A DNA stretch of 53,265 bases, from IMG/VR virus record IMGVR_UViG_3300050505_000145, positions 1 through 53,265 of that record. One strand, given 5' to 3'. The stretch comes from a virus. Taxonomy: Duplodnaviria; Caudoviricetes. Under the pieces are notes generated by a model that worked only from the letters and a program-made list of their open reading frames with translations, had not been told where the DNA came from and ran no database searches. Below are positions 35,686 to 49,868 of this stretch, in pieces (the stretch's first letter is position 1; each line of letters starts with the position of its first letter). Made by a program: the position numbers and the translations under genes.

Positions 35686-35688
35686 GTC

Positions 35689-36309: not shown

Positions 36310-36371
36310 CTCGTCGTCGACATGTTCGCAAGTTGGTCAGGACGCTGGGTTGGTAGCCCTCACGTCTTGAC

Positions 36372-36409: not shown

Positions 36410-36447
36410 ACCATTTCCTCTCCTAATCTCCGGATTGGATGTGTCTC

Positions 36448-36756: not shown

Positions 36757-36765
36757 ACTTGAGTC

Positions 36766-38763
36766 GTGACTCAATCGCAAAGTCTCTTTGATCTCATCCG
36801 TCCGGATTATCCACAATCCCAGTGGAAACCAGAAGACCCTCCCATCCTGGATGGTATCAATGAAATCTTTCTCGATTTTGAGACCGATGGAGTTAGATGG
36901 TGGGGAGGTTCGAAGCCATTTGGATGTGGCTGGTTCCTCCCAGACGGTCGATCCGGATATCTTGGCTGGGGTCACCGAAACTTCGACGGTCCGCAACATG
37001 ATGAAGCAATTTGCAAGAGATGGTTTCACGAACAGGTTCGTGGCAAACGGATCACGAATCTCGCAACGAAATTCGAGGTCCACATGGCTCGTGTTTGGGG
37101 CGTGGACCTTGAAGAGCAAAGGAACCAGGTTTCTGACGTTGCACATTATGCTGCTCTTCTAGACGATCATCGTCAAGAATTCTCACTCGCTTCACTTTGT
37201 CGCGATTTCCTCCCTCCTGATGAACAGAAAGTCTTGGTGGTTGATGGATGGAAGCTCGATCCTGCACGGATGGCTTACTATCCTCCTGGCATGATTGCTG
37301 TTCGAGCGGTGGGAGATGTTCGCCAAGTCAAGTTACTCCGAGATATCTTCTGGCCTAAGATGACTCAACTCGGGTTGCAGAAAGTGCGACAACTAGAGGA
37401 TGAGATCATCTACGTCGTATGCGAGATGGAGAAGAACGGAGCGAAGATTGATGTTGAACTCCTCGACCGCTGGGTGACGGAGACTCAACGCATTATCGAG
37501 AAAGGATATCGTCGGCTCTACGAACTGACAGGATTCCGTCTCAACGTCAATTCTTCTTCTGACATGGCTCGGTTGTGGACGAAGATTGGAATCCCACTCG
37601 AATACACGGCACCAAGTGCGTCACATCCGGAAGGGCAACCGAGTTTCACTACCGACATCCTCAAGAAACATCGCCATCATTCCGAAGAAACTGAAATCGC
37701 ATTCACTATCAGCAAGCTCATGGATTTGCGCAACAGCTATCTGTTGCCCTATGCGCAGTTGGTAGATCGGTCAACTGGAATCCTTCGTTTCGCAATGCAT
37801 CAGCTTCCATCTCAGAAAGATGAGTGGAATGAAAGAGACACAGCTGGTACTATTTCAGGCCGATTTTCTTCTACGAGACTTACGAAGGCACCTGTTGAAG
37901 GATTCGGCATTCAGCGGACGATTAAACCCGCAAAGCAAAGAACTATGTTTGGCTACGATGAAGAAGATGATTCGCACGATGATGAATTGTTCATCATCCG
38001 TCGTCTTCACGTGCCGGACAAGACGGACCATCCTAATGCTCTATTCCTATCCGCTGATGCGATGCAAATTGAGTATCGTCTCTTCGCGGAAGAAACGAAG
38101 TCAGACCGACTCGCGAGGATCTACGAAGAAAATCCGAAAGCGAGCTTCCACAAAGAAACGCACAAGATGTGGAAGGTCTACAAGCCAGATCTGACCTATC
38201 GACGCAACAAAGACACGAATTTCGCGCAGATCTACGGAGCAGGAACTCGGAAGAAAGCATGGATGCTGGGATTCATCACGAAGCAACGTTATCTGGAATT
38301 ACTTCATGATGACAACTGGCGTGATGCTCCAGATCTGAAGGAAGCATTTGAGGTTGAAGCACTTTACAACAGGATGATTCCCGAAGTCAAGCCAATGATG
38401 AAGAAAGCGGAGGAGTTGGCGAAGAATCGGGGATACATCAAGTCCATCTTGGGTCGACGAAGCACGTTTCCTGGTGGTGAACGAGCGCACAAGGCTCTGA
38501 ACACTCGAATCCAGCCAAGTGCTGCTGATATCATGAAGCAGAAGCTTGTCGAGCTCCACAAAGTATCGCGTCAGATTGGATTCCTGCTTCGTTACACTGT
38601 TCATGATGAAGTGGATGGTGACGCAAGAGGTGGAATCGAAACTGTTCGTGAGGTGCACAAGATCCTGAATCGGCAGTCATTCAAGACCAGAATTCCAATT
38701 CTGTGGGAGACGAATTACGGTCCGAACTGGCGTGACATTCAGGAATACAACGAAGCAGCATGA
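36766..38763 (+). CDS. polA: DNA polymerase family A with 3'-5' exonuclease
   Basis: DFET, TISGRFSS, ADAMQIEYR (A), KDTNFAQIYG (B), TVHDEV (C). Confidence 0.95.
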   Translation: MTQSQSLFDLIRPDYPQSQWKPEDPPILDGINEIFLDFETDGVRWWGGSKPFGCGWFLPDGRSGYLGWGHRNFDGPQHDEAICKRWFHEQVRGKRITNLATKFEVHMARVWGVDLEEQRNQVSDVAHYAALLDDHRQEFSLASLCRDFLPPDEQKVLVVDGWKLDPARMAYYPPGMIAVRAVGDVRQVKLLRDIFWPKMTQLGLQKVRQLEDEIIYVVCEMEKNGAKIDVELLDRWVTETQRIIEKGYRRLYELTGFRLNVNSSSDMARLWTKIGIPLEYTAPSASHPEGQPSFTTDILKKHRHHSEETEIAFTISKLMDLRNSYLLPYAQLVDRSTGILRFAMHQLPSQKDEWNERDTAGTISGRFSSTRLTKAPVEGFGIQRTIKPAKQRTMFGYDEEDDSHDDELFIIRRLHVPDKTDHPNALFLSADAMQIEYRLFAEETKSDRLARIYEENPKASFHKETHKMWKVYKPDLTYRRNKDTNFAQIYGAGTRKKAWMLGFITKQRYLELLHDDNWRDAPDLKEAFEVEALYNRMIPEVKPMMKKAEELAKNRGYIKSILGRRSTFPGGERAHKALNTRIQPSAADIMKQKLVELHKVSRQIGFLLRYTVHDEVDGDARGGIETVREVHKILNRQSFKTRIPILWETNYGPNWRDIQEYNEAA

Positions 38764-38910
38764 ACTTCCCGATTGAACCACATCCGTATCTGTGTCAAGT
38801 AGAAGGATGTAAACATCTCGGGCAAGAAATCATAGATTTTCATGAGAAAGGCAAGATGCGTGTTTGTCTCTATCATTACGTGGTGTTGATGATTCCAGCA
38901 GTAAAGCAAG

Positions 38911-39309
38911 ATGGACGAAAAATCTCTCAAAGCTGATCTCGTTCGGGAATTGCGTTCCCGTGTTCCTTGGGTCGTTCTCCGTCTGGAAACTGGGCAGACA
39001 ACATCTGGTGTTCCTGATATTGTCGTTGTCGGCAATCATTACACATCATGGTGGGAAGTCAAATACGCGGATCCAGATTTCACGTCCAAGGGCATTCAAG
39101 AACTCACATGCCTCCGTCTTGCGAAACACGGATTTTGCCGGTACATCATCTACTCGAAGGTGGACGACAACAAAGAAATCTACATCGTTCCTCCATCTGA
39201 GTTCGCGAAGTGGCAACAATCTGTGAATCGTCGAGCAGGATTTGACCACAACTGGGTGTGCGATTACATTATCCGTGCACATCAACACCAATTTGAGAGT
39301 GACAAATGA
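38911..39309 (+). CDS. VRR-NUC / Holliday junction resolvase-like nuclease
   Basis: E...GVPD...WWEVK PD-(D/E)xK pattern. Confidence 0.75.
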   Translation: MDEKSLKADLVRELRSRVPWVVLRLETGQTTSGVPDIVVVGNHYTSWWEVKYADPDFTSKGIQELTCLRLAKHGFCRYIIYSKVDDNKEIYIVPPSEFAKWQQSVNRRAGFDHNWVCDYIIRAHQHQFESDK

Positions 39310-39491
39310 CTCCATCGCGTGCACTGCTATGGGCACTTTTCGCAGCGAACCACAAGCCAGATCCTCATTCGGATGCGCTTGGTTCCACACAAGCCGCGCA
39401 GCATGCGGATCGTTTGCTCGAAGAATTTGACCAACGATTCAAGCTCGTCGAAATCCCAACTGGTTCACAGATGGCGTATCGCGAGACCTAA
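39306..39491 (+). CDS. hypothetical protein
   Basis: 4-nt overlap with the upstream gene; fills the gap. Confidence 0.6.
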   Translation: MTPSRALLWALFAANHKPDPHSDALGSTQAAQHADRLLEEFDQRFKLVEIPTGSQMAYRET

Positions 39492-39492
39492 C

Positions 39493-40461
39493 ATGAATCA
39501 CTTCCAACATTTCTTCGATTTCTGCATGTACGAGAGACTCACCGGAGGTCCAGATCCTCACATGCAAGCAGTCGTCGAAATGTCTCGAGACTGTGATTTC
39601 GTCGAGAAAGTCTGGCGATCCATGCTCTACGTCGGATTCTACAATGTGCCGTCGGCCGAAGCCATGTGGACGCATGTGTTTCCCGAGAATCATGAGGATC
39701 CGAAATCAACCGAGGAATGGCTCAAGGAATATTGGCCTGGTCTTCGCACTCGTCGCGAACGTCGAACAGTAAAATCACCGGAACGGATGTCGGACTACCT
39801 CTGGGGATTCAAGAACGTTGTCAGAGAACTCCAGACTCTCAAAGATGCTGAGTTCGAGGAAGTGTGGGACTTCGCGAAAGATATGTATCATGTCGGCCGA
39901 TACGCAGCGACTAAATTGTGCGAGATCTGGCATCGGATGGATCTCATCTCTGCTGAATGCCCTGATATTCGTGCCGACGGAGGATGGAGTCCTCGCGAAG
40001 CACTGAATCTGATCTACGATCGAAACGATGACTGTCGACTTAATTCGCACGCAGCCATAAAGAACGCAGAGGAACTTGCTGCCGATAATTACAAGAAGAT
40101 TCGTGAGCACGGACTTCAGATTTCGCGATTCGAGCAAGAAGTCATGCTCTGCGAATACAAGGAATCCTACAAGACGCATCGTCAATATCCGGGACGAAGT
40201 CTCGACTCCGAGCTTGGCTACGAGATGGAAATCGCTGGCTGGTGGGGAACGAAGTCAGATTTCAAGAGTCAGCATCTCGAAGTCCGCAAGATCGTGAGTC
40301 CTCCGTGGGCTCTCGGTGAGATCAGCGGATGGGATGGCGTGCGCAAAGATCTTGGCTATGTGTTGGCGAATTATGGCTACACGTGGTCTGACGCAATCTA
40401 TGATTTCAAGGCAACAACGAATCTCAAGAATCCTGTGAGGCGACCATGTCCACTCGCTTGA
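39493..40461 (+). CDS. amino acid:DNA transferase (aGPT-Pplase2 family), thymidine hypermodification
   Basis: Start revised to 39493; PDP, ERR, VGRYAATKLCE, EVMLCEYK...YPG; cluster context. Confidence 0.72.
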   Translation: MNHFQHFFDFCMYERLTGGPDPHMQAVVEMSRDCDFVEKVWRSMLYVGFYNVPSAEAMWTHVFPENHEDPKSTEEWLKEYWPGLRTRRERRTVKSPERMSDYLWGFKNVVRELQTLKDAEFEEVWDFAKDMYHVGRYAATKLCEIWHRMDLISAECPDIRADGGWSPREALNLIYDRNDDCRLNSHAAIKNAEELAADNYKKIREHGLQISRFEQEVMLCEYKESYKTHRQYPGRSLDSELGYEMEIAGWWGTKSDFKSQHLEVRKIVSPPWALGEISGWDGVRKDLGYVLANYGYTWSDAIYDFKATTNLKNPVRRPCPLA

Positions 40462-40907
40462 TTGAACTCCATCCGCGTCTTTTCATTCGTGGACACACGA
40501 GAGGAATTCTCTCGACAGTGATGCTTCGCGAAATCCACGAGAAGGATATCGGGAAGGTGTTGAACGTCGCCATCATTGCTGACGACTTCCTCGAACGTGC
40601 GTGCCAAACAGTCGGAATCGTCTACAAACATGTTCCTCTGCGGGATAGTCGTTTGCAGGAGATTCCAACTCAGGTCACCGATCTCATCAACGAGGTTGCT
40701 GAAACGATGGAATACACCGGAGTCCTGGTTCACTGCGATTCCGGATACAATCGGTCCGCACTCATTGCTATCCCTGCCTGTTCTGAAGTCACAGGAGTTC
40801 CACCAGGAGAGATCATCGACCGAATTCGTCTTCAACGTCCGCGACTGTTACACAATCCGCGATTCGAGCATTTCGTGAGGAATTATGGCCAAGCAACTGC
40901 GCGCTGA
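40446..40907 (+). CDS. dual-specificity / Cys-based phosphatase
   Basis: VLVHCDSGYNRS = HCX5R. Confidence 0.9.
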   Translation: MSTRLIELHPRLFIRGHTRGILSTVMLREIHEKDIGKVLNVAIIADDFLERACQTVGIVYKHVPLRDSRLQEIPTQVTDLINEVAETMEYTGVLVHCDSGYNRSALIAIPACSEVTGVPPGEIIDRIRLQRPRLLHNPRFEHFVRNYGQATAR

Positions 40908-41874
40908 TGAAGGTGGCACTCCGTGGTGCCTTCAGCCTGAATTGGTTCGTGGTTGCTCGATGCGCCACGGATCCGGTCCTGGTGGTCTCTGCCATTTCTG
41001 CGGGATCACAGCGATTCGTGAAGGACCAGGCAACTACGAATACATGTCTCTCACGACTGCCGAACGAATCGCATCTCAGGCTGCCGACTGGTGTCCGAAA
41101 ATCCGTGTCGAGTATGCGATGCGTGGCGAACCACTGATGCATCCGAAACATCTTGAAATCTTCAAGATGTTCCGAAAGTATCTGCCTGAAGCCAGCATCA
41201 TGGTTACCACGAATGGTGACACTCTGCGGAATCGGATGCAGGACGCAGTCGAGAAGATCTTCGAGACAGGATTGAATTTCATCTTGCTCGATACCTACTA
41301 TCCGAAAGAACGACGCGATCAACTTCGTGAGCAAGCGTGGGCTCTGAAAGATGTGCGAGTTGTTGACTATTTCGACGAGATGATGCCAGCTGGTGAAAGT
41401 CCGTATGCTCGGCACAATACGTGGCAGAGGACTATCATCTTGATGGATGATTTGTCAGTTCGAGATGGTGAACATCAAAGTCGTCTCGTCAAGACTCATG
41501 CTGGAAGTAATCAGACCAAGCAAATTCGTGAACCACTCCATCGCAACTGTGGTCGACCATTTCGTGAGATGACGTTCACGACTGAAGGCAATCTCACGCT
41601 CTGCTGCGACGACTGGCGGATGGAGTATATTATCGGCAACGTCAACACGTTCACGCTCGAGGAGCTCTGGAAACATCCCAAGATGGAAGCCGCTCGAGCT
41701 CGGCTTCTGCAACACGATCGGAACTGGGGTCCGTGTCGCGAATGTGATGCTCCGTCAGCTCCACGCAGCGGACTTCTTCCTCACTACGATCCGCCAACTC
41801 CAGAGCAGATTGCGCTGACCGAATCTGCTTACAATCACAGGAAACCGATATGGCTGAAACCGACCAAATCCTGA
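40885..41874 (+). CDS. radical SAM enzyme with SPASM/twitch domain
   Basis: C-x11-C-x2-C, RGEPLMHP, TTNG, CGRPF, LCCDDW, GN, CRECD. Confidence 0.85.
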   Translation: MAKQLRADEGGTPWCLQPELVRGCSMRHGSGPGGLCHFCGITAIREGPGNYEYMSLTTAERIASQAADWCPKIRVEYAMRGEPLMHPKHLEIFKMFRKYLPEASIMVTTNGDTLRNRMQDAVEKIFETGLNFILLDTYYPKERRDQLREQAWALKDVRVVDYFDEMMPAGESPYARHNTWQRTIILMDDLSVRDGEHQSRLVKTHAGSNQTKQIREPLHRNCGRPFREMTFTTEGNLTLCCDDWRMEYIIGNVNTFTLEELWKHPKMEAARARLLQHDRNWGPCRECDAPSAPRSGLLPHYDPPTPEQIALTESAYNHRKPIWLKPTKS

Positions 41875-42623
41875 AGGATACGGTCATCATCATTCCGACG
41901 AAACGAGCAACTCCGTTGCGCACTTTGCAACTGTTGCTACAGCAAAACATTTCGTTGCCGATCATCATTCAATCAGATCCACGAACACTTGAAGCGAACA
42001 AGACCATCGCCAATTCCCAGATTCGAGTGGTTGAAGGAAAAGTCGGAATGATTCCGCAATCTCTTGAGTGCTATCGGCAAGCATTCAAGGCAGGATTTCG
42101 GTTCTACTTCCGACTCGATGATGACTGGCATGCGAATATGTTCGTGAACAAGCAAGGACCAATTCCGTGGATTGAAGCCATCACAGAAGCGCGGAAGTGT
42201 GCTGAAGCACTCGGAACATCACTCAACGGATTTCAGAATACGGCACGCAAGGATTGGCTCGGAACTGGTTTCAAGCGAACATTCGGTTTGATCACTGGTG
42301 GTGCGCAACTATGTGCAGCATGCGAAGATCCTTCCTTCTTCCTCGACGAAAATCTGCCGGCATACGAAGATGTCTACCGTTCGGCAGCACATCGTGAGAA
42401 AGATGGTTGTCTGGGTCGAGTCGCTGCGATCGGTGTTGACAAACGAGAAGCACTTCGCGATTCGTCGATGAACAAATCGAAGGAAGTGCAAGAAGAAGCG
42501 AAGCGGATCATTCTGTCACGATTTCCTGATACAGTCACGTGCAACGGATATCGCACTCTTGACGGTGGCTTGCAGACGATTCCAAACTGGCGACTGGTTC
42601 GCGGACCGAAATGGAGATGGTGA
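41850..42623 (+). CDS. TAGT/GREB1-like GT-A glycosyltransferase
   Basis: IIIPTKR, RLDDD, YEDVY motifs; DNA-modification context. Confidence 0.7.
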   Translation: MAETDQILKDTVIIIPTKRATPLRTLQLLLQQNISLPIIIQSDPRTLEANKTIANSQIRVVEGKVGMIPQSLECYRQAFKAGFRFYFRLDDDWHANMFVNKQGPIPWIEAITEARKCAEALGTSLNGFQNTARKDWLGTGFKRTFGLITGGAQLCAACEDPSFFLDENLPAYEDVYRSAAHREKDGCLGRVAAIGVDKREALRDSSMNKSKEVQEEAKRIILSRFPDTVTCNGYRTLDGGLQTIPNWRLVRGPKWRW

Positions 42624-43078
42624 TGATACTTATCCAAGACGTCTTGTGTCCGTCGTGCGGAAATCATACGCTTTCTGTGAACAATGAACATCAATTGGTC
42701 TGCACAGCGCTCGAATGCAAGGATCCTGGTGCTGCGAGAAATATGCTGCACGAACCGTTGGTCTCAATGAATAGGCAACTGACATCTCGCTTCCACATCC
42801 ACGCAGATCTGAGAACAGCGAAGATCTCGGTCATCAAGACGTCCAACGGTCAGGAAGTGCCGGAAGAGGAACCACTCGTTCTGCTCCGTGCTCGTGATCG
42901 TCTGGCGATCCCGACACTCGAAGCCTATGGCAAGATCGTCGCCGAAACCGAATATTCGGATCCGATTGCGAAGGAGGAGCATCTGCTCAGCAACAAAGCA
43001 ACGATTGCGAAATTCCGTGCGTTTGCTGAGAAGTATCCGGAACGCATGAAATTGCCGAACATTACGCGAGGTAAATGA
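42611..43078 (+). CDS. hypothetical protein (Zn ribbon plus EPxxLLRARD domain)
   Basis: CPSC...C...C; EEPLVLLRARDRLA. Confidence 0.7.
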   Translation: MEMVMILIQDVLCPSCGNHTLSVNNEHQLVCTALECKDPGAARNMLHEPLVSMNRQLTSRFHIHADLRTAKISVIKTSNGQEVPEEEPLVLLRARDRLAIPTLEAYGKIVAETEYSDPIAKEEHLLSNKATIAKFRAFAEKYPERMKLPNITRGK

Positions 43079-43608
43079 TGTTCGTTGACAAGCGAACTCT
43101 TGAATCGTTGTCGTCGTTCGCGGCCAACGCACGCCTGATCGCGATGACTCGGCCAACGCATCGTGGTCAAGGTCTGCCAGATGCACCGTGCACTCATTTC
43201 CATGCTGCAACAGGAACTCTGATCATCTTCACTCGAGATGAAGGCATGCATTCGAGTGGGTGGTTTAAGAATCCTGATTACGACAAATGTCTTCACTTGT
43301 CGTTGTCGTTTGCTGATCCAGTCACTCATCAGCGACGTCCGTTCGACGAAAAGCTGGCCGATGCGTGGGTTGATGCATTCTTCCCGAACGACAAGAAACT
43401 CGTGTGGATGGAATCTGCAAAGATGCCAACCGCCAGAGCAATCGTGACGCACTATCGTGTCTTCTGCGACGAAAACTGGCAGCCGATTCTTCCGCGAGGC
43501 GAAGTCTACTCGACTGAGTTCACCGAGAAAGGATGGAAATCATGGTCTGAACAACATCCCGATCAACCGAACGCATATCATCTTCAATACGAGGATCCTG
43601 ACAAATGA
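43075..43608 (+). CDS. conserved hypothetical protein
   Basis: Chained overlaps; HSSGWFKNPDY..CLHLSLSF. Confidence 0.75.
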   Translation: MMFVDKRTLESLSSFAANARLIAMTRPTHRGQGLPDAPCTHFHAATGTLIIFTRDEGMHSSGWFKNPDYDKCLHLSLSFADPVTHQRRPFDEKLADAWVDAFFPNDKKLVWMESAKMPTARAIVTHYRVFCDENWQPILPRGEVYSTEFTEKGWKSWSEQHPDQPNAYHLQYEDPDK

Positions 43609-44060
43609 CCTGTACAATTATCGGCATCATAGTTTCATGCGTCGGTCTTCAACCACTCTCACCACAAGAAGCAGCGGACGCGCTGCAGAAAGTGAGTCCG
43701 CCATATGTCGCCACAACCTGGGATCCCATTCCTTTCGCTTGGCCCGAAGTGCCGGATATGCGGACGTGGATACCACAGCGAAGCACACTGTCCGATGAAT
43801 CGTGGCGACTTCCTAATCTCCGACGGCTCGACGGCACCTCTATCTTCGAACCACCAACAGTCTACGGAGATATCTATGGACGTTATGCTCATCGCCGAAG
43901 AGATTTCTTTACTCAAGGTCAATTTGGTCAACGCCCTCCGCACGCAACTCGAGATCTTCAAACAGAAGACAGGAATCCATCCGTCGGCAATCACAGTGAA
44001 AGTCATCGAAGTAACAGCGTATCCGGGTCATCGGCGGGAGTTCGAAGTCGGCAGCGTTGA
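43605..44060 (+). CDS. hypothetical protein (3' half overlaps the next gene)
   Basis: ATGA coupling, hydrophobic N-terminus; low-complexity tail. Confidence 0.45.
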   Translation: MTCTIIGIIVSCVGLQPLSPQEAADALQKVSPPYVATTWDPIPFAWPEVPDMRTWIPQRSTLSDESWRLPNLRRLDGTSIFEPPTVYGDIYGRYAHRRRDFFTQGQFGQRPPHATRDLQTEDRNPSVGNHSESHRSNSVSGSSAGVRSRQR

Positions 44061-44079
44061 GCTTGATTTCAAGTTCTAG
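43876..44079 (+). CDS. 67-aa hypothetical protein (MDVMLIAEEI...)
   Basis: GGAG SD; ends just before the SD of the cold-shock gene. Confidence 0.55.
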   Translation: MDVMLIAEEISLLKVNLVNALRTQLEIFKQKTGIHPSAITVKVIEVTAYPGHRREFEVGSVELDFKF

Positions 44080-44087
44080 GAGGCGAC

Positions 44088-44303
44088 ATGGCGGCGATGC
44101 ATGGTACGATTCGACGAGTGATCATCGACAAGGGATTCGGTTTCATCAAGGGTGATGACGGTCGCGAATACTTCTTCCACAAAAGCAATCTCCGGAACGC
44201 GGAGATCACCGAGATGACTCAGGACGACAAGGTCACGTTCGAGGATGATCTGGAACATGCTCAGCGCGGACCGAGAGCGAAGAACGTCTATCTCGAGTCA
44301 TGA
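44088..44303 (+). CDS. cold-shock domain protein
   Basis: KGFGFI (RNP1), YFFH (RNP2), GPRAKNV; AGGAGG SD. Confidence 0.95.
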   Translation: MAAMHGTIRRVIIDKGFGFIKGDDGREYFFHKSNLRNAEITEMTQDDKVTFEDDLEHAQRGPRAKNVYLES

Positions 44304-44884
44304 CTAACTGGTTGCAGACGACATTTACTGGCAAGCATATCGACCCAACCGATCTTCGACACGAGGATATCTGCATCGAAGATATCGCACATGCGCTGGC
44401 ATTGTGCAATCGGTTTGCTGGCCATTCGAAGAAGCCGATCAGCGTCGCGCAACACTCAGTCTATGTCGTTCGCGTGGTGGAGAAAGATCCATTTGCGCAA
44501 GCGAAATGGATCCGGCTCCAAGCACTTCTGCACGATGCAGCAGAAGCATATCTCGGTGACATCACGAGATGGATCAAGAGAACAGCATTTCTTGATGGAT
44601 ATCGACTCCTCGAACACGAAGTGCAGAGTCGAATCTACCAGAGATTTGATCTTCCGATGGGTCTTCATCCTTCTATCACCAAAGCCGATCGAGTGATGGT
44701 CCGCTTTGAAGCGAGGAAAGCATTCGGCAAGGATTTTGTGATTGATGAACATCACGGACCAGGTGATGGTGAATTTCCAGCGATGACCAAAGAGGAAGAA
44801 GATCTGGTTGGGCACTGGTCGTTCTGGGATTGGAAGTGGTCAGAGCAACTCTTTCTCGATTATTTCAGGATGATCACAACATGA
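44300..44884 (+). CDS. HD-domain 5'-deoxynucleotidase (YfdR-like)
   Basis: DIAHALA...RFAGH, SVAQHS, LLHDAAEAYLGD. Confidence 0.9.
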   Translation: MTNWLQTTFTGKHIDPTDLRHEDICIEDIAHALALCNRFAGHSKKPISVAQHSVYVVRVVEKDPFAQAKWIRLQALLHDAAEAYLGDITRWIKRTAFLDGYRLLEHEVQSRIYQRFDLPMGLHPSITKADRVMVRFEARKAFGKDFVIDEHHGPGDGEFPAMTKEEEDLVGHWSFWDWKWSEQLFLDYFRMITT

Positions 44885-45309
44885 AGGTTATTGATCCTGG
44901 CCACGTCTACGAACTCCAGTGGCTTGATGGTGAACCAGAAGTCGCGGAACTGAACGATCCAGAACAAGAAGTATCGCGACCATTTCGCACCAACACACTT
45001 CAGTTCGTGAAACGCGAAGGACCAGGATATCCTGGCAATGTCTACCATCATCCAGGAACTACAATACAGGAAGTCCTTCGCGTACTGATTGACCGAGTGA
45101 AATATCTCAACAATCAGATTCCTGACAAACGAAATGACGGAGTAATTCTTCAATTACAATGTGCGATCTGGTTGCTTGAAGATCGAGCGGCACAACGTCA
45201 TGGTCGTGATTTCAGCAAAATCACACCATACAAAATCGAGAATCGTCCGACTTGTTCAAAGTGCCTCCACATCGGATGCGACGGCCAATGTCATCCGGAT
45301 CAAAGATAG
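44881..45309 (+). CDS. Tad1/Acb2-like helical-hairpin protein (candidate immune-signal sponge)
   Basis: Start revised to 44881; GHVY, LQF, GTT.QEVL..LIDR, RN, A...L..R...R pattern. Confidence 0.5.
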   Translation: MKVIDPGHVYELQWLDGEPEVAELNDPEQEVSRPFRTNTLQFVKREGPGYPGNVYHHPGTTIQEVLRVLIDRVKYLNNQIPDKRNDGVILQLQCAIWLLEDRAAQRHGRDFSKITPYKIENRPTCSKCLHIGCDGQCHPDQR

Positions 45310-45325
45310 TTACAGCAACGTTTCT

Positions 45326-45367
45326 GCAACGTTTCTTCTAGCTTTTCACAAGAAAACGTAGTAGAAT
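45326..45367 (+). promoter_or_regulatory. variant phage promoter motif (CAACG...CGTAGTAGAAT)
   Basis: Intergenic; CGTAG directly before a TAGAAT -10, as in the other copies. Confidence 0.55.
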
Positions 45368-45385
45368 ATAGGCACCAGTAAAGTC

Positions 45386-45973
45386 ATGATAATCAATCTA
45401 AGAGGAACGTCCGGTTCTGGCAAGAGTTTCATCGTGCGTGAACTGATGAAGAACTACCAGGTCCGTGAACCAATGTTCCGTTCTGGTAGAAAGCAGCCAG
45501 TCGGTTACAGGTTCTATCGTGAACCAGGAAGTTTGGTTCGTCCTCTCTACGTTCCTGGCCACTACGAAACAGCATGTGGTGGTTGCGATACTCTCAACGG
45601 TCTCGATTACATCTACGAACTCATCGAAGCGCCGGCCAAGATGGGATGGGATGTAATCTACGAAGGTCTCATTGTGGCCAGTGATGTGATCCGATGCTGT
45701 GATCTCAAACGTCGGTATCAGTTGATGGTCATCGAACTCAATACTCCACTCAACGTCTGCATCGCGAGCATCCAAGCACGTCGAGATGAACGCGGCTCCG
45801 TCCAGGAGATGAAAGAATCCACCATCAAGACGGCTCACAAGAAGATGGAAGGAGTTAAGAATCAGCGTTCGCGTTTCCGCGACGCAGGAGTTGATTTCCG
45901 TCTTCTTAATCGCGAAGATGCATTGAATGCAGTCATGGAGGCAATGGGTTGGCCGTCGACGATCAGCGTCTGA
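45386..45973 (+). CDS. P-loop kinase component of the 5-hmdU DNA kinase system
   Basis: IINLRGTSGSGKS, GHYETACGGCDT, YEGL; adjacent to the helical domain gene. Confidence 0.8.
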   Translation: MIINLRGTSGSGKSFIVRELMKNYQVREPMFRSGRKQPVGYRFYREPGSLVRPLYVPGHYETACGGCDTLNGLDYIYELIEAPAKMGWDVIYEGLIVASDVIRCCDLKRRYQLMVIELNTPLNVCIASIQARRDERGSVQEMKESTIKTAHKKMEGVKNQRSRFRDAGVDFRLLNREDALNAVMEAMGWPSTISV

Positions 45974-46800
45974 AATTCTTCGCAACCGCACGCGAACGAT
46001 ATCAGATCAAACTGAGACGTGAACAAGGATTTCCTTGGCCATGGACCAAGGATGGTGTATTTCAGGAATATCGTTTCTGCAACGTTCATCGTGAAGACGA
46101 CAAAACAACCGTCTGGTTCCGCGACAACGTGCGATTTCCTCTCTGCGTTCAACGCAATTATCTGAAGATCGTCGAAGCAACTGTCATCTTTCGTTGGTTT
46201 AATCGTATCGAAACTGGTGAAGTTATTCGAGATTTGTTGCTGAACGGATGGAACCAAGACGAAGCGAATCGACGTCTCGCTCATGTCAAGCCATTGGTCA
46301 CTGGCGCATACATGATCAAGACGTTGACCGGAAAGAACAAGCTTGATGGAATCCTCGAATGTGTTCGAGTGGCCAGAATCCTTCTACCAGACATGGTCAA
46401 GCTCTGGGGAAACTCACTTCGTCGTGCGTGGATGGATCTTCAGGATATTCCATATCTTGGACCATTCATGGCATACGAAGTGGTGACTGATTTGCGATGG
46501 ACTCCGATGTTGGAGGATGCAGTCGATATCATGAGTTGGGCCAATCTTGGTCCTGGTGCAACTCATGGTATGGGTCGCATTCTTCGTGACGACTCACGAG
46601 CATTTCATCGTGGTTCACAAACTGACCAATGTGAGATGCTGAAAGAATGCGAGAATCTGTTAGCCATGAGTCAGAATCCACACTATTGGCCAGCAGATTG
46701 GAAACAATGGGAGATGCGCGAAGTCGAACATTGGCTTTGTGAATACGACAAGTACAGTCGTGGTGCGCAAGGTCAGAGACTGAAGCGTCGGTATCTCTAA
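45949..46800 (+). CDS. 5-hmdU DNA kinase helical domain (aGPT-Pplase1 family)
   Basis: PWTKD...YRFCNVHREDD, FRWFN, GPFMAYEVVTDL, GPGA, EHWLCEYDKY. Confidence 0.88.
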   Translation: MAVDDQRLKFFATARERYQIKLRREQGFPWPWTKDGVFQEYRFCNVHREDDKTTVWFRDNVRFPLCVQRNYLKIVEATVIFRWFNRIETGEVIRDLLLNGWNQDEANRRLAHVKPLVTGAYMIKTLTGKNKLDGILECVRVARILLPDMVKLWGNSLRRAWMDLQDIPYLGPFMAYEVVTDLRWTPMLEDAVDIMSWANLGPGATHGMGRILRDDSRAFHRGSQTDQCEMLKECENLLAMSQNPHYWPADWKQWEMREVEHWLCEYDKYSRGAQGQRLKRRYL

Positions 46801-47039
46801 TGTTCAAAGTCGGCGACCGCGTCATCAAATCCACGTGGGATGAACTGCGTCCTTTCAAACGTGGGAAAATCAATCGTGTCTATTCATCTACACCATCTGG
46901 CACTGGACAGAAATTCATCATGTATTCGGTAATGTGGGATGGTGAAACCACAGAAGATCACGGTTACATTGAAGGTGGTCAACTGAAACCAGAACCACCA
47001 ATCTTGGCATCACCATTCTTTCCGGAGACACGATCATGA
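46800..47039 (+). CDS. small SH3-like hypothetical protein
   Basis: MFKVGDRV...YSVMWD; chained overlaps. Confidence 0.65.
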   Translation: MFKVGDRVIKSTWDELRPFKRGKINRVYSSTPSGTGQKFIMYSVMWDGETTEDHGYIEGGQLKPEPPILASPFFPETRS

Positions 47040-48133
47040 TCGTTCGTGAAATTCCACAGATGGTAGTGATTGATGCACGCAATGTGCACGAAGTATTGCC
47101 AATTGCTGTCAGTCACCTGATCTTACATGGTGACGAACGCGATAGTCGGAACGGAAAAGTCATCCTCACTCCATATCCAGTCACGACAATCTATCGGAAA
47201 CCACTCGAACGCGTGCTGTTCTGGCCAGAACGCGACGCCAATCCGTTCTTTCATCTCTATGAAAGTCTGTGGATGTTGAACGGACGCAATGATGCTGGAT
47301 CCGTCGCTCGCTATGCAAAGAACATGATCAACTACAGCGACGACGGAAAAACCATCCACGATGCGTATGGCTACCGATGGCGTAAGTGGTTCGAATTCGA
47401 TCAACTTGAACCGATTGCTGAAGAACTTCGCGTCCATCGCGATAGTCGTCGTTGTGTGCTCCAGATGTGGGATCCCACATCTGATCTCGGCAAGAATGGC
47501 AAAGCATTTCCGTGCAATCTCTGCCTAACATTTCAACGTGATCAAGAAGGTCGGCTCGACATGACTCTGTTCTGTCGATCCAACGATATCATCTGGGGAG
47601 CGTATGGCGCCAACGCTGTACACTTCTCAGTTCTCCTCGAATATATGGCAATCTGGATCGGCTGCCCAGTCGGTGTCTTCCGTCAGATTTCAGTAAACTG
47701 GCACGCATATCTTGAATCATTTGACCAAGTCAAGTCATTGACAGATGGTATTGGATCACCGAATCCATACGATGGGCAAGTTCAGCATCTGCCGATGATT
47801 CTACCGATGTCAACATTTGAGCATCCGTCGGCAACTATCCGACGACTGGATGATCAGATTACCGAAATCTTACTGCAAGCGGACACGCATTTCGGGCTCG
47901 AGCGAATTAGACCACGAAATCCGAATCCGTGGCAGGAAATGGTCTTGAAAGTGCTGCAAGCCCATGAAGCATGGAAAGAGTTACCAGCTCCAGAGCGATT
48001 CACGCAAGCACTCCTCGAATTGAATGCTGCTGGTCATGCAGCAGACAGACCAGTTGATTGGGTATTCGCAGCCAACGAATGGATTCTTCGTCGTCAGAAG
48101 ATCTGGGAAGAGAAGGTCAAACGTGCGAATTGA
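47036..48133 (+). CDS. thymidylate synthase homologue, probable dUMP hydroxymethylase
   Basis: SRNG, RDANPFFH..E, AYGYRW, PCN, RSNDIIWGAYGANAVHF; context. Confidence 0.85.
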   Translation: MIVREIPQMVVIDARNVHEVLPIAVSHLILHGDERDSRNGKVILTPYPVTTIYRKPLERVLFWPERDANPFFHLYESLWMLNGRNDAGSVARYAKNMINYSDDGKTIHDAYGYRWRKWFEFDQLEPIAEELRVHRDSRRCVLQMWDPTSDLGKNGKAFPCNLCLTFQRDQEGRLDMTLFCRSNDIIWGAYGANAVHFSVLLEYMAIWIGCPVGVFRQISVNWHAYLESFDQVKSLTDGIGSPNPYDGQVQHLPMILPMSTFEHPSATIRRLDDQITEILLQADTHFGLERIRPRNPNPWQEMVLKVLQAHEAWKELPAPERFTQALLELNAAGHAADRPVDWVFAANEWILRRQKIWEEKVKRAN

Positions 48134-48335
48134 AACAGTGAAGGAAATCAGTCTCAATCTCCGTCGCATTGCACGTGATGTTGAGCAGACTGCAGTTGGC
48201 AGCAGTCGTGTGAGAATGTACAACGAACTCGCCGAAGCGATCCGAAACGAAGCTGACAAAGTTGACATGATCGCCAACTTTGTTGGATCCGCACAATTTC
48301 GTGTGACCAAAGATGGAGATCCGAACAAAAGCTGA
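48123..48335 (+). CDS. hypothetical protein
   Basis: GTG start after AAGG; fills the gap. Confidence 0.55.
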   Translation: MRIETVKEISLNLRRIARDVEQTAVGSSRVRMYNELAEAIRNEADKVDMIANFVGSAQFRVTKDGDPNKS

Positions 48336-48858
48336 ATTCTTCGACCTCTGGCATCGAGGAGTTCTCGGCAACCGAACACGACTAACCCAAGATCCTGATA
48401 TCGCTTGGTCATGGGAAGTTCCCGAATATGGATTTCGTATGGCACAACGTGGTGGCGGTGGTGGAATGTGGCGAGGTGTTACACGAGATATATTCTGGAC
48501 TGAAGTCCATTTGTGGGATTCACTTCACGGACTAGGCAATTATTTCATCGATGATCGCGTTCCTGATTCACATCAAACGATTCAAGGCGAGGTGTGTCGA
48601 ACATTTCGTGGTCTTGAAGGCTTTATTGGCGCTAGTCATTTTCCTATGCGTGTGGCGATGTCACAAGGCATACTCAAACCACGTTCACCAGTCGAAACGT
48701 TCGTTCTACTCAACTCGTTCATGGATCCTCCATCACGTGATGATCTGGACGCACTCCTTGATCTCTTTCCTGATGCGACAATAGAATTTACGTGTTTTGA
48801 TTGTCCAGTTGGTGTCCTTCGTCGAAACACCATCTTCTGGGAAACGAGGAACTACTGA
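48313..48858 (+). CDS. hypothetical protein
   Basis: Long ORF within the operon. Confidence 0.7.
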   Translation: MEIRTKAEFFDLWHRGVLGNRTRLTQDPDIAWSWEVPEYGFRMAQRGGGGGMWRGVTRDIFWTEVHLWDSLHGLGNYFIDDRVPDSHQTIQGEVCRTFRGLEGFIGASHFPMRVAMSQGILKPRSPVETFVLLNSFMDPPSRDDLDALLDLFPDATIEFTCFDCPVGVLRRNTIFWETRNY

Positions 48859-48971
48859 TGCTACGATTCATTCTGTGGCTCTCACGCAAATGGCACGACT
48901 GGAAGGATATGCGAATGTCTGATAGTCTGCCAATCCGTTCGGAGTGGCGAGAATATCCACCACACCGATGA
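48858..48971 (+). CDS. 37-aa ORF (MLRFILWLSRKWHDWK...)
   Basis: Not in ORF track; GAGG SD, TGATG coupling. Confidence 0.45.
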   Translation: MLRFILWLSRKWHDWKDMRMSDSLPIRSEWREYPPHR

Positions 48972-49108
48972 CTGAACCAGGATGGTGGGCATTTCTTGCG
49001 TATCGACGTTGGCCACACGTTGAACGCTGGATGGATGTGAGAACAGGACAGATTGTAGAATTCATCCGACTGATGCCGCATCGATATGCGAATCCACGAC
49101 ATTCTTGA
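48968..49108 (+). CDS. 46-aa ORF (MTEPGWWAFLAYRRW...)
   Basis: Not in ORF track; ATGA coupling. Confidence 0.4.
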   Translation: MTEPGWWAFLAYRRWPHVERWMDVRTGQIVEFIRLMPHRYANPRHS

Positions 49109-49868
49109 ACTGACTCGACCTCTCATCGCTGTCGATGTTGAGACCACACTCCGAACTCATCGGATTGTGGAACTCGGTTTTGTGGTCGAGTATCCAGACA
49201 AACGGAAACCAAAGGAATGGTGTTCCTACATCAATCCTGGTGAACCGATTGAGCCAGGAGCAACAGAGATTCACGGCATCAATGATGAGATGGTGGCGAA
49301 AGCTCCACGATTTCATCAGATTGCTGCGAATCTAGCAACAGGATTCCAGAATTGTGACTACTGCGGTTACAACATCGTCTTCGACATGGATGTGATTCAG
49401 GACGAGATGGATCGTTCTGGAGTGCGTTGGTCGTTCGACGGTGCCCGACTCCTCGATTCCTACAAATTATGGGGAGTCGCAAAGAAACGACGATTGGTGG
49501 ATGCGGTTGAAGAATATCTTGGCCGAAAGCCAACAGATCAGCATCGAGCGGCTGGTGATGCCAAAGATGCACTTGAAGTCGCAATTGCGCAACTCCAACG
49601 TCATCCTGATGTGCTTCCTGCCGATCTGCAACTTCTGCACGACATGTGTTTCAACAAGAATTCTAATCGTATCGACAAGAAAGGCAAGTTCCTCTGGAAA
49701 GATGGTCGTTGCGTGATGGGATTCGGAAAGCACAAGGAGATCTGGATCGAGAAAGTGCTCGAAAGAGATCGTGGATATCTGGAGTGGATTGTCCGCGATG
49801 ATGGATTTCTATCTGATGCGAAGAAGATTGCATCAGATGCTCTTCATGGAGTTTTCCCAACCAAATGA
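49086..49868 (+). CDS. DEDDh 3'-5' exonuclease (DnaQ-like) with C-terminal FGKH domain
   Basis: DVETT, YNIVFD, HRAAGDA; FGKHK...YLEW. Confidence 0.9.
   Translation: MRIHDILELTRPLIAVDVETTLRTHRIVELGFVVEYPDKRKPKEWCSYINPGEPIEPGATEIHGINDEMVAKAPRFHQIAANLATGFQNCDYCGYNIVFDMDVIQDEMDRSGVRWSFDGARLLDSYKLWGVAKKRRLVDAVEEYLGRKPTDQHRAAGDAKDALEVAIAQLQRHPDVLPADLQLLHDMCFNKNSNRIDKKGKFLWKDGRCVMGFGKHKEIWIEKVLERDRGYLEWIVRDDGFLSDAKKIASDALHGVFPTK

What the first reader, a model, noticed from the sequence alone, without database searches (positions are those of the whole stretch)
39493..48133. Thymidine hypermodification cluster with an unusual tailoring set
Seen: dUMP hydroxymethylase-like TS, P-loop kinase plus aGPT-Pplase1 helical gene, aGPT-Pplase2-like transferase, and a tightly overlapping run transferase-phosphatase-radical SAM-glycosyltransferase. 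Known: M6, ViI and PaMx11-type phages make 5-hmdU DNA, phosphorylate it, attach Gly or Ser, then tailor it with rSAM, PLP decarboxylase, flavin or acetyltransferase enzymes. No PLP, flavin or acetyltransferase gene is recognisable in this window, though the window is incomplete. Inference: a new modified base, possibly glycosylated, or two modifications on one genome.
Basis: partly seen in the sequence, partly recalled or inferred. Interest (0 to 1): 0.8.

Follow-up and report, generated by a model that had tools for sequence, protein, structure and literature searches.

The report
Sugar-type thymine hypermodification gene cluster
A soil phage carries genes that rebuild the thymines of its DNA with a transferase that is always partnered with a phosphatase, plus a radical enzyme and a sugar-adding enzyme, which points to a DNA decoration that has not been described.

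Summary
The cluster matches no characterised pathway. It has no homologue of the M6 PLP or rSAM genes, and none of the PaMx11 flavin or acetyltransferase genes.

New points:
- The transferase belongs to a separate ADDT (aGPT-Pplase2) clade. A Cys-phosphatase (DSP) lies beside it in 46 of 46 IMG/VR loci and is fused to it in 19 of 252 proteins.
- In the one close relative without a DSP, a HAD phosphatase sits next to the transferase.
- 20 of the 46 loci also carry myo-inositol-1-phosphate synthase, usually directly upstream.
- The rSAM is BtrN-like, with a twitch auxiliary cluster, not M6-like. In 76 of 85 rows its family sits with a glycosyltransferase or with ADDT-DSP.
- The 257-aa gene is a divergent TAGT-like GT-A enzyme.

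Best reading: 5-hmdU is phosphorylated, then substituted by a phosphorylated sugar or cyclitol-like ligand. The ligand is then dephosphorylated, oxidised and glycosylated. The product itself is inferred, not shown. The record is about 69% complete.

The parts
39493..40461 (+). Divergent ADDT / aGPT-Pplase2-family transferase (322 aa from the ATG; a GTG at 39319 is also open)
   Evidence: Pfam PF18724 E 1.4e-8, 35.2 bits against a 26.2 cut-off. AF2 pLDDT 93.7. Best PDB fold match is PaMx11 gp46/PUGT 8z2n, prob 1.0, TM 0.54-0.61, 12% identity.
40446..40907 (+). Dual-specificity (Cys) phosphatase, partner of the transferase
   Evidence: Pfam DSPc E 5.3e-10. HCDSGYNRS = HCX5R(S) and an Asp in PLRDS. 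A DSP lies next to ADDT in 46 of 46 loci. Fusions seen.
40885..41874 (+). BtrN-like radical SAM enzyme with one twitch-type auxiliary cluster
   Evidence: Pfam Radical_SAM + SPASM. Invariant C24, C36, C39, C222, C240, C241, C284 and C287 in 28 relatives. Profile against the PDB: BtrN, E 7.6e-21, with the auxiliary Cys residues aligned.
41850..42623 (+). Divergent TAGT-like GT-A glycosyltransferase (257 aa)
   Evidence: 9 of 18 family members hit PF20691 at E<=1, best 4.9e-5. hhalign against a TAGT cluster: 84%, E 8e-6. AF2 pLDDT 91.9. Foldseek finds GT-A enzymes at E about 1e-6. The DDD motif at 90-92 is invariant.
42611..44303 (+). Four small ORFs (155, 177, 151 and 71 aa) of unknown function, probably not part of the pathway
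   Evidence: No Pfam family above cut-off. Singletons in the all-against-all clustering of 79 related loci. ESM Atlas gave nothing for the 177-aa ORF.
44300..44884 (+). HD-domain deoxynucleoside 5'-monophosphate phosphatase (pool control)
   Evidence: phrog_318 E 2.3e-44. The same gene lies next to the TS homologue in PaMx11, M6 and PhiJL001.
45386..45973 (+). P-loop kinase half of the split 5-hmdU DNA kinase
   Evidence: AAA_33 E 3.1e-6; HMUDK_HMUD1 0.002, below its cut-off. 46% identical to the PaMx11 gp49 ORF, E 2e-32.
45949..46800 (+). HMUDK helical domain / aGPT-Pplase1 half of the kinase
   Evidence: PF18723 E 2.4e-38. 49% identical to PhiJL001 gp19 and 48% to PaMx11 gp50.
46800..47039 (+). 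79-aa ORF between the kinase and the TS homologue, unknown
   Evidence: ORF only; no Pfam hit.
47036..48133 (+). Thymidylate-synthase homologue, inferred to be a dUMP hydroxymethylase
   Evidence: PF00303 E 5.8e-21. 46-47% identical to the TS homologues of PaMx11 and M6 and 39% to that of PhiJL001. The hydroxymethylase activity is inferred from those relatives.
38911..39309 (+). 132-aa ORF conserved upstream of the transferase in relatives, unknown
   Evidence: tblastn matches in L004, L007 and L008. No Pfam hit.

Best explanation
This is a thymidine-hypermodification operon of the 5-hmdU type, but with a new downstream branch.

Steps supported by homology to tested enzymes:
- The TS homologue makes 5-hm-dUMP, and the HD phosphatase trims the competing pool.
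- 5-hmdU enters the DNA.
- The split kinase (P-loop plus helical domain) makes 5-phosphomethyl-dU in DNA.
- A base-flipping ADDT-family transferase replaces that phosphate with a nucleophile.

Inferred steps:
- In this transferase clade the nucleophile is not a plain amino acid. It is a phosphorylated polyol, sugar or cyclitol. In many relatives it would be inositol phosphate made by a phage synthase; in this phage it would be a host metabolite.
- The coupled Cys-phosphatase removes the ligand's phosphate, either just before or just after transfer.
- The BtrN-like radical SAM enzyme then oxidises a hydroxyl of the appended group.
- The TAGT-like GT-A enzyme adds a sugar from a host NDP-sugar, either to that group or to left-over 5-hmdU.

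The expected product is a carbohydrate-type hypermodified thymine that is not among the known bases.
For: The shared front end is present, at 46-49% identity to PaMx11, M6 and PhiJL001. The ADDT passes Pfam's cut-off, and its best fold match is the solved 5-PmdU glycinyltransferase.

**Transferase-phosphatase coupling**
- The 46 loci were retrieved with ADDT motifs alone. A DSP domain lies downstream of ADDT in 46 of 46, within 71 nt in 36 of them.
- 9 of 10 long homologues are ADDT-DSP fusions by Pfam.
- 19 of 252 collected clade proteins are fusions by local HMM, always in the order ADDT then DSP.
- The catalytic CX5R motif is kept in 42 of 43 unique DSP domains.
- Control loci (M6, PaMx11, PhiJL001 and two actinophages) have no DSP at E<=0.01.
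- L007 is a close relative without a DSP. It has a HAD_2 phosphatase (E 9e-14) directly upstream of its ADDT.

**Ligand**
- Myo-inositol-1-phosphate synthase (PF01658, E 5.7e-36) occurs in 20 of the 46 loci, mostly abutting ADDT, and is spread over several ADDT clades.
- In L097 and L104 the gene order is MIPS-rSAM-ADDT-DSP-kinase.

**rSAM**
- The closest solved protein is BtrN, a cyclitol dehydrogenase (as I recall its function), at E 7.6e-21. The SAM-cluster Cys residues align, and an invariant Cys of the family lies at or next to each of the four conserved BtrN Cys positions of the C-terminal domain.
- Of 85 family rows, 61 share a locus with a TAGT, 9 with ADDT-DSP (3 have both), and 9 more with a putative GT-B. 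Only 9 have none of these.

**GT**. L007 adds a GT2, a weak GT64-like gene and a SAM methyltransferase.
Against: - No MIPS gene is in the window or in its own ADDT clade of WIN, L087, L088 and L089. The sugar or cyclitol ligand is therefore extrapolated from other clades.
- The DSP profile matches only generic protein DUSPs in the PDB and says nothing about substrate.
- HAD phosphatases can act on nucleic-acid phosphates as well as on sugar phosphates, so L007 shows that a phosphatase is needed, not what it acts on.
- BtrN likeness is at profile level and does not fix the reaction.
- The window GT itself is below Pfam's TAGT threshold.
- The record is about 69% complete, so further pathway genes could lie in the missing part.
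- All evidence is gene content. No chemistry, no reads that could show modification, and no cultured phage.
Confidence: 0.5

Rival explanations
1. Two modifications, with the phosphatase as an eraser. ADDT attaches an ordinary amino acid at some sites. DSP hydrolyses the 5-PmdU that was not used, returning it to 5-hmdU. The GT then glycosylates that 5-hmdU (base-J-like) and the rSAM tailors the sugar.
For: TAGT and rSAM co-occur in many loci that have the kinase and TS but no ADDT. They can therefore work on 5-hmdU-derived DNA without an ADDT product. PhiJL001 has kinase helical domain, TAGT and TS only.
Against: An eraser that competes with the transferase for the same substrate is an odd fusion partner, yet 19 fusions exist. 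DSP is kept in 42 of the 46 ADDT loci that have no TAGT. This reading does not explain MIPS in 20 of 46 loci. M6, PaMx11 and the actinophage systems need no phosphatase.
Confidence: 0.2
2. The phosphatase, and perhaps the rSAM, make the activated sugar donor for the glycosyltransferase and do not act on the DNA adduct. The HAD phosphatase of the arabinosyl-5-hydroxycytosine pathway works this way.
For: PMC13326640 (passages read) describes a HAD phosphatase in phage NDP-sugar synthesis. L007 has a HAD phosphatase and several GTs.
Against: The window has no sugar kinase or nucleotidyltransferase among the 49 ORFs scanned. DSP tracks ADDT, not the GT: 46 of 46 loci have a DSP and only 4 of 46 have a TAGT. 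DSP is fused to ADDT.
Confidence: 0.08
3. An amino-acid pathway that is completed by genes missing from this 69%-complete record, such as a PLP decarboxylase. The product would be a known base (5-NedU, 5-NeOmdU or 5-AcNmdU), and the phosphatase, rSAM and GT would be accessory.
For: The record is a linear fragment. The front end is shared with M6 and PaMx11.
Against: In M6 and PaMx11 the tailoring genes sit inside the cluster. Here those positions are taken by DSP, rSAM and GT. L088 shows a complete ADDT-DSP-HD-kinase-TS block with no other enzyme. The ADDT is not detectably similar in sequence to the glycine transferase.
Confidence: 0.07
4. The phosphatase, rSAM and GT have nothing to do with DNA. 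They would serve host take-over, or modify phage or host proteins or the cell surface, and lie here by chance.
For: DSP-fold enzymes are mostly protein phosphatases. Phage GTs can serve seroconversion (my own knowledge).
Against: The translational overlaps place them inside the modification operon. There are ADDT-DSP fusions. The rSAM family is linked to the kinase helical domain in 50 of 79 loci and to the TS homologue in 49 of 79.
Confidence: 0.04

Closest known systems
Pseudomonas phage PaMx11 pathway (5-AcNmdU; gp46 PUGT, gp47 flavin lyase, gp48 acetyltransferase)
   Same: TS homologue, HD phosphatase, and a kinase split into P-loop and helical genes (46-48% identity). The transferase has the same fold.
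   Different: No flavin or acetyltransferase gene. The transferase is 12% identical and is not found by HMM. It is coupled to a phosphatase. rSAM and GT are added.
Pseudomonas phage M6 pathway (5-NedU; SPL-like rSAM isomerase gp53, PLP decarboxylase gp52)
   Same: 5-hmdU, kinase and Pplase2 logic. A radical SAM enzyme is among the tailoring genes.
   Different: M6 gp53 is spore-photoproduct-lyase-like (PMC8989533, section 18 passages). This rSAM is BtrN-like with a twitch domain. No window match to the M6 tailoring ORFs.
Salmonella phage ViI pathway (O-linked serine, 5-NeOmdU)
   Same: It shows that a Pplase2 can use a hydroxyl as the nucleophile (PMC13458397 introduction passage). A sugar or cyclitol ligand would need this.
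   Different: The ViI ligand is serine, followed by a PLP decarboxylase. It has no phosphatase, rSAM or GT.
TET/5mYOX-associated glycosyltransferases (TAGT) of phages that glycosylate 5hmC
   Same: The window GT is a distant TAGT relative with a GT-A fold and a DXD-type motif. The rSAM family also sits in TET + TAGT loci.
   Different: Here the hydroxymethyl base comes from a TS homologue, so it is uracil and not cytosine. The main texts I searched do not mention an rSAM partner.
BtrN, the radical SAM dehydrogenase of butirosin (aminocyclitol) biosynthesis, PDB 4m7t
   Same: SAM-cluster motif region. An invariant Cys lies at or next to each of the four conserved BtrN Cys positions, with similar spacing.
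   Different: Low identity. The window clade has an 8-residue insert, giving CX11CX2C. The substrate would be DNA-bound or a free cyclitol or sugar, and is unknown.
Oligosaccharide-hypermodified thymines of SP-15, YerA41 and Carin-5
   Same: Thymine carries a linker with sugars and a phosphate (PMC12686479 passages).
   Different: Those are large myoviruses with other gene sets (NDP-sugar genes, UDG-fused polymerase). No ADDT-DSP pair is reported in the passages read.

Membership tests
5-hmdU-type thymidine hypermodification system (Lee et al. 2018, 2021) | A source of 5-hmdU: a TS-homologue dUMP hydroxymethylase or a TET/JBP dioxygenase | tested here: met
   PF00303 E 5.8e-21. 46-47% identical to the PaMx11 and M6 homologues. 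Hydroxymethylase rather than methylase activity is inferred and cannot be tested here.
5-hmdU-type thymidine hypermodification system (Lee et al. 2018, 2021) | 5-hmdU DNA kinase: P-loop kinase plus HMUDK helical (aGPT-Pplase1) domain | tested here: met
   PF18723 E 2.4e-38. The P-loop gene is 46% identical to the PaMx11 kinase ORF. It is split into two overlapping genes, as in PaMx11.
5-hmdU-type thymidine hypermodification system (Lee et al. 2018, 2021) | aGPT-Pplase2 / ADDT transferase | tested here: met
   PF18724, 35.2 bits against a 26.2 cut-off. Top PDB fold match is PUGT 8z2n. A weak hhalign (prob 20%) puts Y137, K141, E216 and C220 opposite PUGT W146, K150, E243 and C247.
5-hmdU-type thymidine hypermodification system (Lee et al. 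2018, 2021) | A hypermodified thymine present in virion DNA | not testable with these tools
   Only assembled contigs of metagenome runs are held, with no raw or long reads.
M6-type (5-NedU) pathway | SPL-like rSAM isomerase and PLP decarboxylase | tested here: not met
   tblastn of the M6 cluster ORFs against the window finds only kinase, TS, PolA, SNF2 and a gp34-like gene. No PLP family in 49 ORFs.
PaMx11-type (5-AcNmdU) pathway | Flavin-dependent lyase and acetyltransferase | tested here: not met
   No tblastn match of the PaMx11 gp46-gp48 ORFs in the window. No such Pfam family found.
Twitch-domain radical SAM enzymes (BtrN type) | Three-Cys SAM-cluster motif plus four Cys for one auxiliary 4Fe-4S cluster | tested here: met
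   C24, C36, C39, C222, C240/241, C284 and C287 are invariant in 28 sequences. Aligned with BtrN in both domains. The motif is CX11CX2C in the window clade and CX3CX2C in most relatives.
Twitch-domain radical SAM enzymes (BtrN type) | Dehydrogenation of a secondary alcohol of a cyclitol or sugar | not testable with these tools
   Inferred only, from likeness to BtrN and from gene neighbours.
TAGT (PF20691) glycosyltransferases | Match to the family profile | tested here: inconclusive
   The window protein has no hit at E<=1. 9 of 18 family members hit, best 4.9e-5. hhalign against three TAGT clusters: 84%, 48% and 1.4%.
TAGT (PF20691) glycosyltransferases | GT-A fold with an acidic metal/NDP-sugar motif | tested here: met
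   AF2 pLDDT 91.9. Foldseek finds GnT-I, GalNAc-T2, WrtF, TarS and SpsA at E about 1e-6. D90-D91-D92 are invariant.
Dual-specificity / PTP-fold Cys phosphatases | HCX5R(S/T) loop and a general-acid Asp | tested here: met
   HCDSGYNRS, and an Asp in PLRDS. CX5R is kept in 42 of 43 unique domains. Pfam DSPc is above its cut-off.

The most novel reading that the evidence does not exclude
The DSP-coupled clade of 'amino acid:DNA transferases' does not transfer amino acids at all. It would be a sugar- or cyclitol-phosphate:DNA transferase that builds ether- or amine-linked inositol or sugar groups on the 5-methylene of thymine. The fused or adjacent Cys-phosphatase deprotects these groups, a BtrN-like radical SAM dehydrogenase oxidises them, and glycosyltransferases extend them. 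This would be a new chemical class of DNA base modification, spread over hundreds of uncultured phage lineages. The window would be a variant that draws its ligand from the host.
Probability: 0.35. Interest if true: 0.9.

Novelty: new variant of a known kind. Interest (0 to 1): 0.8.

Why it matters
Phage DNA hypermodifications decide whether restriction enzymes, CRISPR nucleases and sequencing chemistries can act on the DNA. They are also a source of enzymes that write chemistry onto DNA.

As listed in August 2026 (PMC13458397), the tailoring enzymes of the thymidine pathways are rSAM isomerases, PLP decarboxylases, flavin lyases and acetyltransferases. This cluster adds three classes that none of the papers I could search links to these pathways:
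- a Cys-phosphatase bound to its own transferase clade,
- a BtrN-like radical SAM enzyme,
- a TAGT-like glycosyltransferase acting in a 5-hmdU setting.

The comparative data make a concrete idea testable: a phosphorylated sugar or cyclitol as ligand. The test needs four or five soluble proteins and 5-hmdU DNA.

The clade is large, with 233 clusters at 50% identity at E<=1e-30. It has no cultured member in the phage collection searched.

Tried and rejected
- **DNA search:** megablast of the cluster against 50,697 phage records found no match.
- **rSAM and GT against phage records:** the rSAM gave one 23% hit and the GT none.
- **ADDT against the PDB by sequence:** nothing with the single sequence or with the profile. 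Only the fold search found PUGT.
- **Profile of the 344-aa neighbour family 'C6':** only a weak MshA-like hit, E 0.67. I call it a putative GT-B and no more.
- **DSP profile against the PDB:** generic DUSP and PRL hits, no substrate clue. ESM Atlas for the DSP gave only DSP families, and nothing for the 177-aa ORF.
- **Complex prediction of ADDT with DSP:** no verdict, score 0.08 against a mark of 0.32. This is not evidence either way.
- **Bacterial and archaeal genome contigs with the ADDT alignment:** no relative found.
- **Promoter and terminator scan of 35500-49200:** counts near the shuffled expectation, so not informative.
- **Sequencing runs:** six rhizosphere metagenome runs hold the stretch, as contigs only. 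No RNA holder is listed and there are no raw or long reads, so I did not lay reads. Neither expression nor modification signals can be read.
- **Terminal repeats:** none at the ends of the record.
- **PNK-like repair pair (kinase + phosphatase):** considered and rejected. The kinase is the PaMx11/M6-type 5-hmdU kinase, and the phosphatase is fused to the transferase, not to the kinase.
- **Literature:** searches, and passages read. None links a phosphatase, inositol-phosphate synthase or a BtrN-like rSAM with thymidine hypermodification. One search was badly aimed and gave nothing useful.
- **Not seen:** Iyer et al. 2013 (NAR 41:7635), which defined TAGT and aGPT-Pplase, is not held. It may mention such neighbours. 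The supplements, including Figure 2 and the SI of Lee et al. 2021, were also not seen and may show similar contigs.

Full report
**What is in the window**

The window is the whole record held: 53,265 bp, one linear contig of a virus record, with a CheckV completeness estimate of 69%. It is a tailed-phage genome.

- A leftward block holds terminase (526 aa, up to 39% identity to phage terminases), portal, a GH108 endolysin, a TIG-domain tail protein, a PrimPol/VapE primase and an HNH gene.
- A rightward block from about 35.9 kb holds PolA, the cluster in question, an exonuclease, an SNF2 helicase and Pam3 gp33/gp34-like genes.
- No phage record resembles the cluster at the DNA level.
- The stretch is held by assemblies of rhizosphere metagenome runs.

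**Check of the observation**

| Gene | Coordinates | Evidence |
|---|---|---|
| ADDT | 39493-40461 | PF18724, 35.2 bits, cut-off 26.2 |
| DSP phosphatase | 40446-40907 | DSPc, E 5.3e-10 |
| Radical SAM + SPASM | 40885-41874 | E 1.5e-8 and 3.4e-11 |
| 257-aa gene | 41850-42623 | no Pfam hit of its own |
| Four small ORFs | 42611-44303 | unknown |
| HD dNMP phosphatase | 44300-44884 | phrog_318, E 2.3e-44 |
| P-loop kinase | 45386-45973 | AAA_33, E 3.1e-6 |
| HMUDK helical domain | 45949-46800 | E 2.4e-38 |
| TS homologue | 47036-48133 | E 5.8e-21 |

The first four genes overlap by 16, 23 and 25 nt. The kinase halves and the TS homologue are 46-49% identical to those of PaMx11, M6 and PhiJL001. 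The split of the kinase into two genes is the same as in PaMx11.

**The glycosyltransferase call**

The 257-aa protein has no Pfam, PHROG or phage-record match of its own. Its family has 17 members in the large protein collection, none named. The following support the call:

- 9 of 18 aligned members match TAGT (PF20691) at E<=1, best 4.9e-5.
- Profile-profile comparison with three TAGT clusters from related loci gives 84% (E 8e-6), 48% and 1.4% probability.
- The AF2 model (pLDDT 91.9) matches GT-A glycosyltransferases: GnT-I, GalNAc-T2, WrtF, TarS, RmlT and SpsA at E about 1e-6.
- A DDD motif is invariant.

So it is a GT-A enzyme and a distant TAGT relative.

**The radical SAM enzyme**

It has 64 relatives in the protein collection, none with an informative name. 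In 28 aligned sequences C24, C36 and C39 are invariant. Most relatives have the canonical CX3CX2C; the window's clade has an 8-residue insert that gives CX11CX2C. C222, C240, C241, C284 and C287 are also invariant.

The profile's best solved match is BtrN at E 7.6e-21. The alignment covers the SAM-cluster region and the C-terminal domain. In that domain an invariant Cys of the family lies at or next to each of the four conserved BtrN Cys positions. That these are BtrN's auxiliary-cluster ligands, and that BtrN dehydrogenates an aminocyclitol, is my recollection of the BtrN literature, not a call.

M6 gp53 is described as spore-photoproduct-lyase-like (PMC8989533, section 18 passages), and the M6 rSAM ORF has no match in the window. 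This is therefore a different rSAM lineage.

**Where the rSAM family lives**

A motif scan of IMG/VR found 182 stretches that encode relatives, and 80 loci were kept. In 79 loci (the window's twin contig and duplicates left out), tblastn with window proteins found:

- the kinase helical domain in 50,
- the TS homologue in 49,
- the window-type ADDT in 3,
- DSP in 2,
- the 257-aa GT in 2.

Clustering of 1,635 ORFs showed that the commonest neighbour is a 267-aa family, which lies within three genes in 36 cases. That family is TAGT (E 5.2e-17). An iterated TAGT HMM finds it in 52 of 80 sources. Other neighbours are a Tet_JBP dioxygenase, a second rSAM, an FkbM-type methyltransferase and a 344-aa family without a Pfam match.

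On the rSAM tree of 85 rows:

- 61 share a locus with a TAGT,
- 9 share a locus with ADDT-DSP (3 have both),
- 9 more have only the 344-aa putative GT-B,
- 9 have none of these, and some of those loci are short.

The rSAM therefore follows enzymes that put a carbohydrate-like group on a hydroxymethyl pyrimidine.

**The transferase and its phosphatase**

The window ADDT passes Pfam's cut-off but is far from the characterised enzymes.

- PaMx11 gp46 scores 97 bits on the same model.
- The window protein, its 30-sequence profile and a local HMM of its clade do not find gp46.
- Its AF2 model (pLDDT 93.7) has gp46/PUGT (8z2n) as the best PDB match, at prob 1.0, TM 0.54-0.61 and 12% identity, ahead of HhH DNA glycosylases.
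- A weak hhalign (20% probability) puts Y137, K141, E216 and C220 opposite W146, K150, E243 and C247. Those four residues are named as DNA-contacting in passages of PMC11472151.

Among 138 homologues, ten are 480-535 aa long. Pfam shows ADDT followed by DSPc in 9 of those 10.

A scan of IMG/VR using ADDT motifs alone gave 46 loci. A DSP domain lies downstream of ADDT in 46 of 46. It is within 71 nt in 36 loci and 211-980 nt away in the other ten; in one locus (L089) the rSAM sits between them. Several of these loci are identical copies: 42 different ADDT sequences among 47 rows.

The CX5R loop is kept in 42 of 43 unique DSP domains, and the window has HCDSGYNRS. Of 252 clade proteins collected from two searches, 19 are fusions, always in the order ADDT-DSP. 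The clade holds 233 clusters at 50% identity at E<=1e-30.

Controls have no DSP at E<=0.01. These are M6, PaMx11, PhiJL001 and two actinophage ParB-TET-Pplase2-kinase systems whose Pplase2 does match the clade HMM. No record in the phage collection has a close relative of the pair.

The one close relative that lacks a DSP is L007, whose rSAM is 64-65% identical to the window's. It has a HAD_2 phosphatase (E 9e-14) directly upstream of its ADDT. It also has a GT2, a weak GT64-like gene and a SAM methyltransferase.

**What the phosphatase may act on**

A 362-aa family directly upstream of ADDT is myo-inositol-1-phosphate synthase (PF01658, E 5.7e-36). Its HMM finds it in 20 of the 46 loci, spread over several well-supported ADDT clades. 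In L097 and L104 the order is MIPS-rSAM-ADDT-DSP-kinase.

A phage that makes a phosphorylated cyclitol next to a transferase-phosphatase pair, and sometimes next to a BtrN-like enzyme, suggests three things. The ligand would be the phosphorylated cyclitol, the DSP would remove its phosphate, and the rSAM would oxidise the cyclitol. The ViI enzyme shows that a Pplase2 can use a hydroxyl nucleophile (PMC13458397 passage).

The window has no MIPS, and neither does its own ADDT clade of WIN, L087, L088 and L089. For this phage the ligand would have to come from the host, and its nature is extrapolated. L088 shows that ADDT-DSP plus HD, kinase and TS can stand alone. The rSAM and GT of the window are therefore add-ons.

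**Known pathways ruled out**

ORFs of the M6 and PaMx11 clusters were searched against the window by tblastn. Only kinase, TS, PolA, SNF2 and a gp34-like gene match. The tailoring ORFs do not. Pfam scans of 49 window ORFs show no PLP, flavin or acetyltransferase family. The missing third of the genome remains a caveat.

**Mechanism and odds**

- **Shown by homology to tested enzymes:** supply of 5-hmdU, phosphorylation in DNA, and displacement of the phosphate by an ADDT-fold enzyme.
- **Inferred from gene linkage:** the phosphatase works with the transferase on one substrate chain. I rate this as very likely.
- **Inferred more weakly:** the ligand is a phosphorylated sugar or cyclitol, about 0.45-0.5 for this phage and higher for the MIPS clades. 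The rSAM is a dehydrogenase of that group or of a sugar. The GT adds a hexose to it or to residual 5-hmdU.
- **Main rival (0.2):** the DSP is an eraser of unused 5-PmdU, which would give two modifications.
- **Lesser rivals:** donor synthesis, a known base completed by missing genes, or no link to DNA.

**Novelty**

The front end is known. The branch is not described in any paper I could search or read. That branch is a DSP-coupled ADDT clade, a BtrN-like rSAM, a TAGT in a 5-hmdU setting, and MIPS in relatives. The passages read were.

Iyer et al. 2013 and all supplements could not be seen and may bear on this. I file the finding as a new variant of a known kind. There is a fair chance that the chemistry, a carbohydrate or cyclitol joined to thymine by a Pplase2, is new in kind.

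Noticed in passing
L001:10349-11167 (PhiJL001 gp22): The cultured marine phage PhiJL001 has a strong TAGT (local HMM E 2e-65) between its kinase helical gene gp19 and its TS homologue gp24. It has no ADDT or rSAM in the stretch read. It probably glycosylates 5-hmdU and could be tested directly.
   Followed up: partly
L136:1897-2889 and 5986-7272 (Ralstonia phage RP13): An aGPT-Pplase1-like ORF (E 9e-36) lies 3 kb upstream of a myo-inositol-1-phosphate synthase gene in a cultured phage said to carry a thymine modification. This is a possible cultured model for an inositol-linked base.
   Followed up: partly
L135:5207-10621 (Stenotrophomonas phage Moby): An inositol-phosphate synthase gene sits inside a FolE/QueC/TGT/QueE 7-deazaguanine cluster. 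16 Stenotrophomonas phage records share the gene. Its role there is unexplained.
   Followed up: no
L097:2373-6315 and L104:5980-10216: The gene order is MIPS-rSAM-ADDT-DSP-kinase. This pairs a sugar-phosphate cyclase with a BtrN-like rSAM, the same pairing as in aminocyclitol antibiotic pathways.
   Followed up: partly
protein P0293 (761 aa), P0203 (637 aa): P0293 is a tandem ADDT-ADDT protein. P0203 is an ADDT-DSP fusion with an extra 138-residue N-terminal part of unknown nature.
   Followed up: no
L116:1595-2342: Two DSP domains lie in tandem after ADDT. The second lacks the catalytic Cys (ISYFGKNRA). A 716-aa protein with a TAGT domain follows.
   Followed up: no
L025:8894-9928 and 20 other loci (family 'C6', about 344 aa): This family has no Pfam match and is a frequent neighbour of the rSAM. 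It has GG and E-x7-E-like motifs and a weak MshA-like PDB hit (E 0.67). It is probably a GT-B glycosyltransferase.
   Followed up: partly
L096:7198-7992; L041:9016-9744: FkbM-type methyltransferases lie next to ADDT in one locus and next to the rSAM in the other. This suggests O-methylation of the appended group in some lineages.
   Followed up: no
window 39493-42623 against L086/L003/L005 (IMG/VR twin contig): In a near-identical 26.8-kb contig the ADDT is 98% identical, while the rSAM and GT are 100% identical. The small differences are concentrated in the transferase.
   Followed up: no
window 4358-5689 (+), 33112-33528 (-), 33525-35537 (-): An ATP-dependent DNA ligase, an HNH endonuclease and a PrimPol/VapE primase. 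These are ordinary replication genes. No dCMP deaminase or ribonucleotide reductase was seen, unlike in PaMx11 and PhiJL001.
   Followed up: no
L106/L107:9482-10432: The P-loop kinase downstream of an ADDT-DSP fusion is detected in three pieces in different ORFs. This could be frameshifts or assembly errors.
   Followed up: no
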